36,201 bases of DNA from a virus (lineage: Duplodnaviria > Heunggongvirae > Uroviricota > Caudoviricetes). Of the stretch, positions 17,501 to 20,500 are shown one piece after another (the stretch's first letter is position 1; each line of letters begins with the position of its first letter). Made by a program: the position numbers. The DNA lies in the IMG/VR virus record IMGVR_UViG_2711768014_000012; one strand, given 5' to 3'.

Positions 17501-20500
17501 TAAGCAGTTTGTAAACGAGTTGCGAGAGTGTCTGGTAAGCAGCTGCCGGACCCTCCATCCAGAATGACGCAATACGTGAGCGTCGGGGATCACCATAACG
17601 ACTGCCATCCGCATTGATGGATTCACCATCCCGCAACCAGACCCCACGTCCGTTCAGCTCACGTTTGTGTTCAGGCATAATCCGTCCTGAACAGGAAGGA
17701 CACTGAATATAAGCCGCCTCACTTGCCAGCACGGGATCGGCAATATCACGGAAACCAGCAACCACATCGCCGCAGGGCTGAAAATACTCACCACAGTGTG
17801 GACAGGGCCAGTACCAGCGACGGCGATCGCCACGGTTATAGAGCGACAGTATCCCCGTGGTTGGTGGAGCCTCATGCGGTGAAGTCCGTCGCCATTTCAC
17901 ATCCTTCACATCCCTGCCGGGGGAACTCTCCACAAGCGTCATACCACTGGACATAAATGTTGTGGTACGTTTTGAGGCAAGAGAGAAAGCATCCCCCTCG
18001 CCATCAATATCTTCCGGAAAACGGTCATAATCCGTCAGCGCGACGCATTTATAATCTGATGAGGACATGATATTGACTGACGGCCAGCCGATTTTCAGGT
18101 AGTTACCAGCAAGGAATGTTCTGTCATAAACGTTGTTGTCATTTTTGTTCGGACTCAGGCGACTGACCACTTCCGGGCTGACGCGAAACGTTCTGGCGAG
18201 TCGTTTTTTGGAGTGTTCGCGGGCTTTTTCCTCCGTCATCTGAATGATCAGCATATCAGCAGGATCGCAAATCACGTTGTAAATCACCCAGCCGTCAATC
18301 AGGCCGATAGTCTTGCCGGTTCGTGCCGGGCCAACAAATATCACTGCGTCGTATTCACGCGAGGCCAGGCAGTTCATCGGCTCAATAACATACGGTGCCA
18401 CCAGCGGATCCCACGGGACTGAGTTCCCTGCCCCCATGGGCACCCGCATATACTGAGCAACGGCATCAGCAACCCGCATTCGTCTCGGTGCGCGAAGGAT
18501 ATAACCTGAATCGGTTCGTGCTGCCTTTGCGGTTTCCTGATTCAGCATTACTCCTCCTGCTGTAATTCCTCCTCATCATCCGCACCTGCTTCAGTCACCC
18601 GCAGGGCTATCTGATCGCGCAGATCATCAATAATGGACTGAACACGGCTCACAGCGGCAGGCTGCAGACCGCAGTCACGTTCCAGAATATCCGGTAATGT
18701 CTCCAGCACCTGCACGACCGCTTTTGCCCAGATGGCAAACTCCCGTCTGACATCACTGGCCGGAATGAGTTGTGCCGTTTCCTGTTCGAACTTAAGACGC
18801 TCACGTTCAGACTGATACCAGGCTTTGCGCTCATGCGCGTCCATTTCGCCTTCTGCAACCGGCGGTGGCAATGCCAGAAATGCCGACACAATATCAACCA
18901 CCCGATAAAGCTTGAGGTTGCTTTCATGCCCCCCTGCAACGGGTAGATTTTGCAGCCTTGCCGCAGCAGTCTGGCGATGTACACCTGACAGTGCCGCCAG
19001 TTGACTGATATTCAGCGTCAGATTTTTTAACTCTCGATCCATACCCGCTCCAGAATGTTTTAAACATGCATCTCGCGAACAACTTTAGGCAAACGGTGTT
19101 AGTGATGAACAAAAAACAATCAAAATCGACACCATAAAAACAAAACCACTGTAATATCAATCTATTACAGTGGTGGTGATGACGAATGAAATTTCAAAAA
19201 CTAGCCTTTTTCCGCGACGCTCCCGCCCCGTGGCAGGCCACTCCACCGGGAGGACCCGTCAGCCTGACAGACATGACGAACGTCTGATACAGCGCCTTGC
19301 ATGAATGGCATCGGGATAATCCAGAAAGGAATAGCATCGTGCCCACAAGAATCTGTGTGAGTATCCTGTTTCTTCCACCCCCGCACAGGACTGGCGAGCA
19401 TGAGGGACAAACCCGCGAACCATAAACGCGGTAAAAACCCGGTGTGCATCGTTTTTGATTATTCCCGCACACTCTCGCAGAAGGAGTTCCCCGTCGGGCT
19501 ACGGTCTCTGTTAATACGGGAATACGGCGACGATACAGCGCATGATGTGTCAGGCTTGAATACCTTTATCCGTTAAAAGGGATATCAGTTAAGTTATCCC
19601 GTGTAGGGTATAAGCCATTATCAAAGCCACTCTGTAGGGAGTGGCTTTTGTAATGGCAATAAAAAGCCCCGCGAATGCGAGGCTAAATCCAGGTATTTTT
19701 AATGACTGGCTCTTATTTCAACGCAGCCCCTTACCGCGCGCCAGATGCTCAACTTCAAGCATCAGCAATGAGATGTTTAATCTGGATTCACTCCAGAAGT
19801 GATCACCACCCTGTCTACAGAGCCAAATGTGAAGGATGATGAGTAAAATTATCGCTATCATCGAAGGCATTGCGTCCTGATATATTCCTGAAGCGTTCTC
19901 AGTGCTGTCTGGTCTCTGATGATTCCGTCCCGGATACCGAGAACGTTTCGTCCAGCAACTGGAGAGAGTTCGACGGTGGCATCATTGCCCATGCCGGAGG
20001 CGCTGGAGGTTTCGGCTGAGGATGGCACAGGGCATTTTCCTTTGACGAGCACCCGACCACCATTATCAAGCTTGCGCCGAAGAGCATCATTTTCAGCTTT
20101 CGCATCAGCCAACTCCTTCGTGTATTTAGCATCGAGTACATCAGCAGCACGCTGGCGTTGCTGCATGTCAGTAATGGTGGCGGTCGCCTGCTTCAGCTCA
20201 CTGACTTTTTTATCACGCTGTTCTTTGTAGGCGATGGCGTTATCACGGTAATGATTGACCGCCCACGACAGGCAGACGATGATGCAGATAACCAGAGCAT
20301 AAATAATCGCGGCGACTCTGCTCACTGATCTATCCCCCAACAGGCTAATGCGCTTTCCTGGTCACGACGAATAACCTGTCCATAGCAGTTATTTGAACGT
20401 ATGCGGCAATCGCGCCCACCATCTTTTATCCACCAGCGAATCGCCTCGCATGCACCTTTACGATCACCAGCATTCAGCCGCTTATAAAACGTCGACGGAA

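What the first reader, a model, noticed from the sequence alone, without database searches (positions are those of the whole stretch)
19043..19857. cos region with a lambda-like cosN, a cosB palindrome, and about 600 bp of unexplained structured sequence upstream
The minus strand at 19230-19211 matches lambda cosN at most positions as recalled, but with substitutions in the cohesive-end core, implying a different 12-nt overhang. A perfect 11-bp-arm palindrome (19146-19173) lies between cosN and the Nu1-like start where lambda has terminase and IHF sites. Further upstream (19240-19857) there is no credible ORF but at least one terminator-like hairpin (GCCACTC-tgtagg-GAGTGGC-TTTT, 19624-19650, + strand), which could mark a small RNA or a cosQ-like element.
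Basis: partly seen in the sequence, partly recalled or inferred. Interest (0 to 1): 0.45.

Follow-up and report, generated by a model that had tools for sequence, protein, structure and literature searches.

The report
Lambda-type cos site of a prophage
This is the ordinary DNA-packaging (cos) site of an mEp460-like lambdoid prophage of E. coli, a natural variant of lambda's; the one unexplained thing upstream is a roughly 180-base non-coding block that lambda itself also carries.

Summary
The late genes run on the minus strand. Upstream of a DUF1441 small terminase (19042-18548) and a gpA-type large terminase lies a lambda-type cos site:
- cosQ heptamer GGGTCCT, 19257-19251.
- cosN, with the nick predicted between 19229 and 19228 and the overhang 5'-GGGCGGGAGCGT (19228-19217).
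- cosB, about 170 bp long.

GenBank records of phages cdtI and Tritos begin at exactly this 12-mer and end at ...CCACG. Variation at overhang positions 7-12 is already documented for lambda-like phages.

The palindrome is perfect here (12-bp arms) but is a minority allele among relatives. The conserved features are lambda-like: CATCAC-type repeats in R3/R2/R1 order, and a perfect IHF core (19155-19167) between the first two.

The upstream 600 bp is mostly explained:
- A 50-aa ORF.
- A strong late-strand terminator (19684-19655).
- The flagged hairpin, which is part of a 19-nt-arm stem.
- A conserved non-coding block (19546-19363).

That block always lies between Rz and the terminase genes and occurs in about 75% of complete E. 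coli genomes, in lambda (46868-46974) and in DLP12. It has no Rfam match. Its base pairing is preserved only on the late-sense strand. Its function is unknown.

Overall this is an ordinary cos site with one modest lead.

The parts
19718..19870 (-). 50-aa ORF that overlaps the Rz stop. N-terminus is hydrophobic. Annotated 'hypothetical protein'.
   Evidence: PGAP WP_001139681.1. Annotated in Ayreon and 569R4. PHROG 11822 over its full length, E 8.6e-38. Coding test inconclusive: 2/2/4 variable sites by codon position.
19655..19684 (-). Intrinsic terminator on the late strand: AGCCUCGC-AUUC-GCGGGGCU followed by UUUUAUUGCC.
   Evidence: Terminator scan. The 96-nt stretch containing this and the next hairpin folds at -40.9 kcal/mol, z -7.2.
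19614..19657 (.). Long hairpin with 19-nt arms. On the plus strand it resembles a terminator facing the one at 19684-19655.
   Evidence: (I1). Ayreon annotates a terminator here. It is not part of the block conserved across phages.
19363..19546 (-). Conserved non-coding block. Late-sense helices: 19536-19530/19452-19446, 19524-19518/19466-19460, 19516-19513/19470-19467, 19497-19495/19490-19488, 19431-19427/19417-19413, 19391-19385/19369-19363.
   Evidence: Found in 4067 of 5426 complete E. coli genomes, in 120+ IMG/VR loci with unrelated flanks, in lambda 46868-46974 and in DLP12 between borD and ybcV. An Rz homologue is always upstream on the same strand (104/104) and a gpA-type large terminase always downstream (61/61). 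Pairing is 99.2% on the late-sense strand against 86.4% on the other. Second domain: 97.0% paired against 92.9% shuffled. No Rfam match. No codon periodicity.
19400..19576 (+). 58-aa ORF called by PGAP. Probably not a gene.
   Evidence: Only 73 protein clusters, all Escherichia/Shigella, with variable starts and ends and frame-shifted segments. No family match. No 3-base periodicity, and the frame is not kept in lambda or DLP12.
19251..19257 (-). cosQ-like heptamer GGGTCCT, 22 nt upstream of the predicted nick.
   Evidence: Identical in lambda, cdtI, Tritos, mEp213, VT1-Sakai, 1720a-02 and PhiR47_1. Invariant in 74 relatives, while 19258 and 19250 on either side are polymorphic. The 7-bp cosQ is highly conserved in lambda-like phages (PMC4669245).
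19215..19230 (-). cosN: CG|GGGCGGGAGCGT|CG. Predicted nicks are 19229|19228 on the minus strand and 19216|19217 on the plus strand. The 5' overhang GGGCGGGAGCGT is 19228-19217.
   Evidence: Alignment to lambda. The cdtI and Tritos records start at this 12-mer and end at ...CCACG. The flanking CG dinucleotides are kept, as described for the family (PMC4669245). Position 19217 is polymorphic, T62/G12.
19189..19211 (-). bp 18-40 after the nick, AAAAAGGCTAGTTTTTGAAATTT. This block, between cosN and cosB, corresponds in position to lambda I2.
   Evidence: Nucleotide diversity 0.000 in 74 relatives. Shared with cdtI and Tritos up to about bp 33, after which their cosB diverges.
19170..19182 (-). R3-like box TCATCACCACCAC (bp 47-59).
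   Evidence: At the same position as lambda R3, bp 50-65 (PMC9026076). CATCAYCAYC-type runs occupy this position in PhiR47_1, 606R10, 1720a-02, VT1-Sakai and mEp213. The assignment is by inspection.
19145..19174 (.). Perfect palindrome with 12-bp arms and a 6-nt spacer (bp 55-84).
   Evidence: It is a minority allele. Hot spots of variation are at 19172/19171, 19163/19162 and 19147/19146.
19155..19167 (+). IHF core consensus TATCAATCTATTA (WATCAANNNNTTR), with an A-tract at 19135-19145 on its 5' side.
   Evidence: One of 3 perfect matches in 36 kb, with 1.3 expected. The consensus positions are conserved and the two most variable sites (19162, 19163) fall in the NNNN. TTGATW is conserved in related cosB regions.
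19126..19135 (-). R2-like box ATGGTGTCGA, inverted relative to the R3-like box (reverse complement ...CACCAT).
   Evidence: GTGTCGA/ATGTCGA is conserved in relatives. Variable triplet at 19135-19133. Assigned by inspection.
19095..19118 (-). TGTTTTTTGTTC, shared by the window, PhiR47_1, 1720a-02 and VT1-Sakai, followed by the R1-like box TCATCACTAACACC.
18548..19042 (-). Small terminase subunit (DUF1441 family). Its ATG is at bp 187 from the nick.
   Evidence: Pfam PF07278, E 2.7e-41. PHROG 141 'terminase small subunit', E 7e-74. Lambda Nu1 starts at bp 191 (PMC9026076).
16446..18548 (-). Large terminase subunit of the lambda gpA family.
   Evidence: Pfam GpA_ATPase, E 4e-72, and GpA_nuclease, E 1e-85.

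Best explanation
The region is the cos site of an mEp460-like lambdoid prophage, together with the tail of its lysis cassette. Late transcription and packaging run on the minus strand.

Inferred mechanism, by homology with lambda:
- Initiation. The DUF1441 small terminase binds CATCAC-type repeats arranged as R3 (19182-19170), an inverted R2 (about 19135-19126) and R1 (19108-19095). IHF bends the DNA at a consensus site between R3 and R2 (19155-19167 plus an A-tract).
- Cutting. This positions the gpA-type large terminase on cosN. It makes staggered nicks (19229|19228 on the minus strand, 19216|19217 on the plus strand), leaving 12-nt 5' overhangs of sequence GGGCGGGAGCGT.
- Termination. cosQ (GGGTCCT, 19257-19251) serves termination at the next cos.
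- Palindrome. The perfect palindrome arises in this allele from the overlap of the R3 end, the IHF core and an inverted CCAC motif. It is not itself the conserved element.

Upstream of cos, the lysis cassette ends with a 50-aa ORF, an intrinsic terminator and a second long hairpin. Q-modified polymerase would read through these (inferred).

Between them and cosQ lies a roughly 184-nt non-coding block inherited in common with lambda and DLP12. It most likely acts in cis as a structured segment of the late transcript. What it does is not known.

The confidence of 0.85 applies to the cos assignment and the nick position. The R-box assignments are less certain (about 0.5), and the RNA reading of the conserved block less still (about 0.3).
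For: Shown:
- gpA-family large terminase, with a small terminase immediately downstream.
- cosQ plus cosN is unique in the window, with 0 expected by chance.
- Lambda-like geometry: cosQ 22 nt before the nick against 23 in lambda, and the small-terminase ATG at bp 187 against 191 (PMC9026076).
- Two independent phage records, cdtI AB285204 and Tritos OV696610, begin at GGGCGGGAGCGT and end at ...CCACG.
- The putative mEp213 cos published from the Feiss laboratory (GGGCGGCGCGCT, PMC12315714) lies at the homologous position.
- The literature states that bp 7-12 of the overhang vary naturally, while cosQ and the flanking CG do not (PMC4669245). This matches the pattern in 74 relatives.
- The whole 815 bp is 96-98% identical in the plaque-forming phages mEp460 and Ayreon.
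- After about bp 33, cdtI and Tritos switch to a different cosB. Their small terminase is only 42% identical while their large terminase is 73% identical. This is the expected modular link between cosB and the small subunit.
- A perfect IHF core sits between the repeat boxes.
- For the conserved block.
Against: - No virion ends were measured for this prophage. I could not read Asakura et al. 2007, so I do not know whether the cdtI record's ends were determined experimentally or set by analogy with lambda.
- The mEp460 and Ayreon records were opened arbitrarily (PMC5764929). The mEp460_4F5 record starts 5 bp earlier, at CCACG.
- The R3/R2/R1 boxes were assigned by eye. No binding data exist for any DUF1441 small terminase that I could find.
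- For the conserved block: single-sequence folding is not exceptional (z -0.94 and +0.11), and the covariation term is small (-0.94 kcal/mol). Most of the variation reflects a few clades, so independent events are few. Its 82% identity to lambda is about the same as that of the neighbouring Rz gene (86%). Phages cdtI, Tritos and mEp213, which have the same type of cos, lack its first domain within the 1-1.5 kb of DNA read upstream of their cos.
Confidence: 0.85

Rival explanations
1. The palindrome itself is the cosB recognition element. A dimer of the small terminase binds the two 12-bp arms symmetrically, without needing IHF or further repeats.
For: The arms are perfect here, far beyond chance, and the left arm sits at the position of lambda R3 (PMC9026076). 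The inner half-sites CTGTAAT / ATTACAG are well conserved in 74 relatives.
Against: Only about 12 of 74 distinct relatives have the perfect palindrome. The outer arm positions (19172/19171, 19147/19146) and the innermost pair vary without consistent compensation. More distant relatives with homologous small terminases (PhiR47_1 86%, 1720a-02 64%, VT1-Sakai 56%) have no such palindrome, but they keep the CATCAC-type runs, the TTGATW core and the downstream boxes. The centre of the palindrome is a perfect IHF consensus.
Confidence: 0.2
2. The upstream block is a small plus-strand transcription unit, like bor in lambda. It would encode the 58-aa protein (19400-19576) or a small RNA ending at the hairpin terminator 19626-19649.
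For: PGAP and one phage record annotate the ORF. On the plus strand the hairpin is followed by TTTTG and faces the late-strand terminator, which is the arrangement expected at converging units. Lambda and DLP12 have leftward genes (bor, ybcV) around the homologous block.
Against: No plus-strand promoter-like site lies between 19043 and 19860. There is no codon periodicity, and indels break the frame in most copies and in lambda. There is no protein family, and all homologues are Escherichia/Shigella with ragged ends. The hairpin is not conserved together with the block. In VT1-Sakai and 1720a-02 the block sits directly between Rz and cosQ, with no plus-strand gene or terminator. Base pairing is preserved on the opposite (late-sense) strand only.
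Confidence: 0.12
3. The conserved block has no function of its own. It is a piece of shared ancestry left in a mosaic genome, perhaps kept frequent because it serves as a homology patch for recombination between lambdoid phages.
For: Its identity to lambda (82%) is no higher than that of the neighbouring Rz gene (86%). Folding energy is unremarkable. It is absent from the 1-1.5 kb of DNA read upstream of cos in cdtI, Tritos and mEp213. Its flanks change abruptly at its edges, as at recombination junctions.
Against: It keeps a fixed position and orientation in every locus examined (104/104 and 61/61) while its neighbours come and go. It is present in about 75% of complete E. coli genomes. Substitutions in the predicted helices are almost all of the kind that keeps pairing on one strand (167 against 2 G-U cells; 11 against 2 pairs), with some double changes.
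Confidence: 0.35
4. The prophage is defective and the cos site is a relic that is no longer used.
For: Homologous cos sites survive in the cryptic prophage DLP12.
Against: The terminase genes are intact. The region is 96-98% identical to the plaque-forming phages mEp460 and Ayreon. cosQ, cosN and bp 18-40 match the consensus of 74 relatives.
Confidence: 0.08

Closest known systems
Bacteriophage lambda cos (cosQ-cosN-cosB with R3-I1-R2-R1)
   Same: gpA-family large terminase. Exact cosQ heptamer at nearly the same distance (22 against 23 nt). The first six bases of the overhang and both flanking CG dinucleotides are identical. The small-terminase ATG is at bp 187 against 191. Repeat boxes have the middle one inverted, with an IHF consensus between the first two.
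   Different: The overhang differs at positions 7, 8, 9 and 11 (GGGCGGGAGCGT against GGGCGGCGACCT). Twofold symmetry covers 8 of 16 bp against 10 of 16. The small terminase belongs to another family (DUF1441, no similarity to Nu1), and the repeat boxes have a different sequence.
Phages cdtI (AB285204) and Tritos (OV696610)
   Same: Identical cosQ, cosN and the first 33 bp or so after the nick. Both records are opened exactly at GGGCGGGAGCGT. The large terminase N-terminus is 73% identical.
   Different: cosB diverges completely after about bp 33, and the small terminase is only 42% identical. Neither has the first domain of the conserved block within the 1.5 kb read upstream of cos.
Phages mEp460, Ayreon and vB_EcoS-569R4
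   Same: The whole 815-bp region is 96-98% identical, including cosB, the small ORFs, the terminators and the conserved block.
   Different: Their records do not mark cos. The mEp460 and Ayreon records both end about 25 bp before the small-terminase gene, and the Ayreon paper states that its record was opened there (PMC5764929). Ayreon annotates a 'putative late gene regulator' CDS that runs across cosN.
Gifsy-1, mEp213 and LLS, N15: natural cosN variants (Feiss laboratory work; PMC4669245, PMC12315714)
   Same: 12-nt 5' overhangs that vary in positions 7-12. [quoted passage not shown] The mEp213 cos, GGGCGGCGCGCT, lies at the homologous site. Complex cosB regions with three R boxes and IHF are reported for Gifsy-1, phi80 and 21 (PMC9026076).
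   Different: This overhang also differs at position 7. I could not read Vahanian et al. 2017 to see whether this exact variant is listed there.

Membership tests
Lambda-like cos site (12-nt 5' cohesive ends) | Large terminase of the gpA family encoded just downstream | tested here: met
   PF05876, E 4e-72, and PF20454, E 1e-85.
Lambda-like cos site (12-nt 5' cohesive ends) | [quoted passage not shown] | tested here: met
   16 of 22 identical. Overhang positions 1-6 and both CG dinucleotides are identical. Unique in the window.
Lambda-like cos site (12-nt 5' cohesive ends) | Conserved 7-bp cosQ upstream of cosN | tested here: met
   GGGTCCT at 19257-19251, 22 nt from the nick. Invariant in 74 relatives and flanked by polymorphic sites. 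That this heptamer is lambda's cosQ is from my memory of Wieczorek and Feiss 2001. PMC4669245 confirms only that cosQ is 7 bp long and highly conserved.
Lambda-like cos site (12-nt 5' cohesive ends) | Complex cosB: three small-terminase binding repeats (R3, inverted R2, R1) with an IHF site between R3 and R2, ahead of the small-terminase gene | tested here: inconclusive
   The IHF consensus is met. The repeat boxes were identified by inspection and by comparison across six phages. There are no binding data.
Lambda-like cos site (12-nt 5' cohesive ends) | Virion DNA physically ends in complementary 12-nt 5' overhangs at this site | not testable with these tools
   Only indirect: the cdtI and Tritos records begin and end here. 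The basis on which those ends were set could not be checked.
   Only PF07278/DUF1441 is matched. BLASTP against lambda Nu1 gives E 20. The gene holds the same position and presumably has the same role, but it is a different family at the sequence level.
Known phage or prophage small RNAs and RNA motifs (Rfam 15, including AgvB, AsxR, Esr41, STnc100, IsrK, C4) | Covariance-model match over 19240-19860 | tested here: not met
   No match at the gathering thresholds. With the permissive E-value search, only chance-level hits and none in 19363-19546.
Structured cis-acting RNA (candidate status of the block 19546-19363) | Base pairs maintained by compensatory change beyond what relatedness explains, and stability beyond shuffled controls | tested here: inconclusive
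   99.2% of cells are paired, but the shuffled control gives 98.9%. Three pairs show double changes. Second domain: 97.0% against 92.9%, covariation score 0.165 against 0.096. Strand asymmetry: 167 against 2 G-U cells. Single-sequence z-scores are -0.94 and +0.11.

The most novel reading that the evidence does not exclude
The roughly 184-nt block at 19546-19363, homologous to lambda 46868-46974 and to the DLP12 borD-ybcV spacer, could be an undescribed cis-acting structured RNA of lambdoid late operons. It lies between the lysis and packaging genes in a fixed orientation. One possible role is as a processing or stability element that separates the fates of the lysis and morphogenesis parts of the late transcript. 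A second, weaker lead concerns the core of cosB, which is 3-6 times more diverse than synonymous sites of the adjacent terminase gene. That could reflect selection on packaging-site strength or palindrome-driven mutation.
Probability: 0.25. Interest if true: 0.6.

Novelty: new member of a known kind. Interest (0 to 1): 0.3.

Why it matters
Placing cos precisely tells which DNA ends this widespread prophage family makes, which phages could exchange or co-package DNA with it, and where its records should be opened. Several records are opened arbitrarily, and one carries a CDS drawn across cosN.

The comparison also shows cosB switching together with the small terminase while cosQ and cosN stay fixed. 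This supports the accepted modular view of packaging specificity.

The part that could matter beyond book-keeping is the conserved non-coding block. It is present in phage lambda itself and in most complete E. coli genomes, it is unannotated, and it can be tested directly by deletion in lambda.

Tried and rejected
- Rfam at gathering and at permissive thresholds: nothing in the region.
- ARAGORN: no tRNA or tmRNA.
- Pfam, PHROGs and NCBIfam on all small ORFs: only the 50-aa ORF has a family, of unknown function. The 92-aa minus-strand ORF 19472-19194 runs across cosN and is called a 'late gene regulator' in Ayreon. It has no support.
- The 58-aa ORF as a gene: rejected.
- A plus-strand small RNA ending at the flagged hairpin: no promoter found.
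- The hairpin as cosQ: rejected, because cosQ is at 19257-19251.
- Literature search by exact sequence for the overhang and for the conserved block: no hits.
- The 'borD ybcV sRNA' literature search matched Bordetella papers and was wasted.
- Pas, AgvB and AsxR small RNAs: they lie elsewhere in prophages, next to Q and the holin genes.
- Asakura et al. 2007 is not held. The Tritos paper does not discuss cos.
- The genome-contig scan with a 17-mer was uninformative. 108 hits were found against roughly 280 expected by chance (my estimate). The true hits were Escherichia, or lambda DNA contaminating other assemblies.
- PDB sequence search for the small terminase: nothing.
- The single-sequence AlphaFold model was too poor (mean pLDDT 66, N-terminal domain 44-67) to justify a fold search.
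- The first viral-contig scan returned only loci with an identical small terminase, so co-variation between the small terminase and cosB could be judged only from six phage records.
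Full report
**Setting**

The window is an E. coli prophage. The 815-bp region is 100% identical to the chromosome of strain CDF6 and is present at 80% coverage or more in 767 of 5426 complete genomes. It is 96-98% identical to phages vB_EcoS-569R4, mEp460 and Ayreon.

The late genes run on the minus strand, in this order:
- Lysozyme.
- Rz (20340-19858).
- The region in question.
- A 164-aa DUF1441 protein that PHROGs calls a small terminase subunit (19042-18548).
- A 700-aa large terminase with both lambda gpA domains (18548-16446).
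- A portal protein.

**cosN and cosQ**

Read on the minus strand, the sequence is ...GACGGGTCCTCCCGGTGGAGTGGCCTGCCACG|GGGCGGGAGCGT|CGCGGAAAAAGG... The lambda sequence is ...TACGGGTCCTTTCCGGTGATCCGACAGGTTACG|GGGCGGCGACCT|CGCGGGTTTTCG....

- By homology the nicks fall between 19229 and 19228 on the minus strand and between 19216 and 19217 on the plus strand. The resulting 5' overhang is GGGCGGGAGCGT.
- It differs from lambda's overhang at positions 7, 8, 9 and 11. The first six bases and the CG on each side are identical.
- The heptamer GGGTCCT lies 22 nt before the nick, against 23 nt in lambda. From memory, this heptamer is lambda cosQ.
- The composite cosQ-spacer-cosN pattern occurs once in the window and never in 100 shuffles.

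Independent support comes from public records.
- The records of phage cdtI (AB285204) and phage Tritos (OV696610) begin at exactly GGGCGGGAGCGTCGCGG and end at ...GGCCTGCCACG or ...CCCCTGCCACG.
- The putative mEp213 cos from the Feiss laboratory, GGGCGGCGCGCT (PMC12315714), lies at the homologous position.
- PMC4669245 states that in lambda-like phages positions 7-12 of the overhang commonly differ. Gifsy-1 differs at 8, 9 and 11, and N15 at 9 and 12. The 7-bp cosQ and the flanking CG dinucleotides are conserved.
- In 74 distinct relatives of this locus that is the pattern seen. 19257-19251 is invariant with polymorphic bases on both sides. The cosN core is invariant except for the twelfth overhang base (19217, T62/G12).

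I could not obtain Asakura et al. 2007. I therefore cannot say whether the cdtI ends were measured or set by analogy.

**cosB**

Counting from the first overhang base (19228 = bp 1), the small-terminase ATG is at bp 187. In lambda, Nu1 starts at bp 191 (PMC9026076).

- bp 18-40 are completely invariant in relatives (diversity 0.000). They are shared with cdtI and Tritos up to about bp 33.
- Beyond that point cdtI and Tritos have an unrelated cosB. Their small terminase is only 42% identical, while the large terminase N-terminus is 73% identical. So cosB changes together with the small subunit, as expected.
- The palindrome (bp 55-84) starts where lambda R3 lies (bp 50-65). In this allele it is perfect, with 12-bp arms.
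- Among 74 distinct relatives whose small-terminase protein is identical, there are 47 haplotypes across the 55 bp around the palindrome. Only about a dozen sequences keep the perfect symmetry.
- What is conserved in those relatives, and in the more distant PhiR47_1, 606R10, 1720a-02, VT1-Sakai and mEp213:
  - A CATCAYCAYC run at bp 47-59.
  - A TTGATW core. Here it is a perfect IHF consensus, TATCAATCTATTA, on the plus strand at 19155-19167, with an A-tract on its 5' side. It is one of three perfect matches in 36 kb, where 1.3 are expected.
  - An inverted GGTG/GTCGA box at about bp 94-103.
  - The run TGTTTTTTGTTC.
  - A third CATCAC box at bp 121-134.
- This is the R3-I1-R2-R1 order reported for lambda, 21, phi80 and Gifsy-1 (PMC9026076, PMC4669245). 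The box assignments are by inspection only.
- The two most variable sites (19163 and 19162) fall in the NNNN of the IHF consensus.
- The small terminase has no detectable similarity to Nu1, so 'Nu1-like' holds only for its position.

**An unexplained detail in cosB**

The cosB core is more diverse than synonymous sites of the adjacent gene.
- In the sample with identical protein, diversity is 0.124 for the palindrome against 0.020 at fourfold-degenerate sites.
- In 18 loci chosen without regard to the terminase, it is 0.215 against 0.065.
- Possible causes are relaxed constraint combined with recombination among co-resident prophages, palindrome-associated mutation, or selection. These were not separated.

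**The upstream 600 bp, read in the late sense**

1. A 50-aa ORF overlaps the Rz stop (19870-19718). It matches PHROG 11822, of unknown function. Its coding status is unresolved.
2. A canonical intrinsic terminator follows at 19684-19655.
3. Next is a long hairpin at 19657-19614. Together these two hairpins fold at -40.9 kcal/mol, z -7.2. On the plus strand the second hairpin is followed by TTTTG, so the pair resembles terminators facing each other. No plus-strand promoter was found, and the hairpin is not conserved outside close relatives.
4. A conserved block lies at 19546-19363. Its properties:
   - **Distribution.** Parts of it occur in 4067 of 5426 complete E. coli genomes, with a median of two places per genome. 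PGAP usually leaves it unannotated. In 120 IMG/VR loci it is flanked by unrelated sequence.
   - **Homologues.** Its first 108 nt are 82% identical to lambda 46868-46974, between bor and lambdap78. They are 83% identical to the borD-ybcV spacer of DLP12 in K-12.
   - **Position and orientation.** An Rz homologue is always upstream on the same strand (104 of 104 loci). A gpA-type large terminase is always downstream on the same strand (61 of 61). In VT1-Sakai and 1720a-02 the block sits directly between Rz and cosQ.
   - **Not coding.** Variable sites show no three-base periodicity. The 58-aa plus-strand ORF that PGAP calls here is broken or shifted in most copies, including lambda's.
   - **Not a known RNA family.** It matches nothing in Rfam.
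   - **Evidence for structure.** On the late-sense strand a consensus fold is kept in 99.2% of cells, against 86.4% on the other strand. G-U cells number 167 against 2, and 11 pairs show G-U variants against 2 with the opposite kind. A second domain, including the hairpin 19391-19385/19369-19363, shows 97.0% pairing against 92.9% in shuffles. One of its pairs is G-C in 21 sequences and U-A in 12.
   - **Evidence against structure.** Single-sequence stability is unremarkable (z -0.94 and +0.11). The covariation term is small. The variation traces to a few clades. The identity to lambda is no higher than that of the neighbouring Rz gene. Phages cdtI, Tritos and mEp213 lack the first domain within the 1-1.5 kb read upstream of their cos, so the block is not part of cos.
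   - **Assessment.** I rate a cis-acting late-transcript RNA as the best single guess. It is not established.

**Verdict**

The finding is a correct identification of an ordinary lambda-type cos site. Four corrections apply: the location of cosQ, the status of the palindrome, the family of the small terminase, and the content of the upstream region.

The cosN variant is already present at the ends of deposited phage genomes, and it fits the documented natural variation of the family. The only element of possible wider interest is the conserved non-coding block shared with lambda.

Noticed in passing
window 19120-19190: The cosB core (palindrome, IHF spacer and neighbouring triplets) is 3-6 times more diverse than fourfold-degenerate sites of the adjacent small-terminase gene. 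Several sites have three or four alleles (19163: T26/A25/G23; 19162: G45/T20/C7/A2). The dinucleotide at 19172/19171 tends to vary together with the triplet at 19135-19133; for example, TG at the first site always goes with C at 19134.
   Followed up: partly
window 19217: The twelfth base of the predicted cohesive end is polymorphic among close relatives (T in 62, G in 12 of 74). Phages with mismatched ends at this position must therefore meet in nature, as studied for lambda and N15.
   Followed up: no
window 29619-29807 (minus strand): Rfam matches above the gathering score to C4 antisense RNA (82 bits) and, directly next to it, isrK Hfq-binding RNA (64 bits). This suggests a P1/P7-type antirepressor control region elsewhere in this prophage.
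   Followed up: no
L001 (Ayreon MF807953, locus 2021-2305); window 19472-19194 and 19170-19304: Public records annotate CDSs that run across cosN: 'putative late gene regulator' in Ayreon, and hypothetical proteins in 569R4 and PhiR47_1. They have no family support, and in virion DNA they would be cut in two. They are probably annotation artefacts.
   Followed up: partly
L004 (mEp460_4F5 LR595868, bases 1-20): This record starts 5 bp before the predicted nick, at CCACG. It also lacks 3 bases of the cosN region (GGGAGCG-CGG instead of GGGAGCGTCGCGG), which looks like an assembly artefact at a genome end.
   Followed up: no
L223-L326 (genome-contig scan): About 25 assemblies of unrelated organisms (Cohnella, Pedobacter, Flavobacterium, Arcanobacterium 'plasmid', various MAGs) hold a copy of the block that scores identically to the lambda match. 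Many are on contigs of about 3.5 kb. This is most likely lambda control DNA left in the assemblies.
   Followed up: partly
window 19145-19174 plus 19135-19144 (minus strand): The terminator scan also flags the cosB palindrome followed by TTTGTTTTTA as an intrinsic-terminator-like site on the late strand, just ahead of the terminase genes. Whether it affects late transcription is unknown.
   Followed up: no
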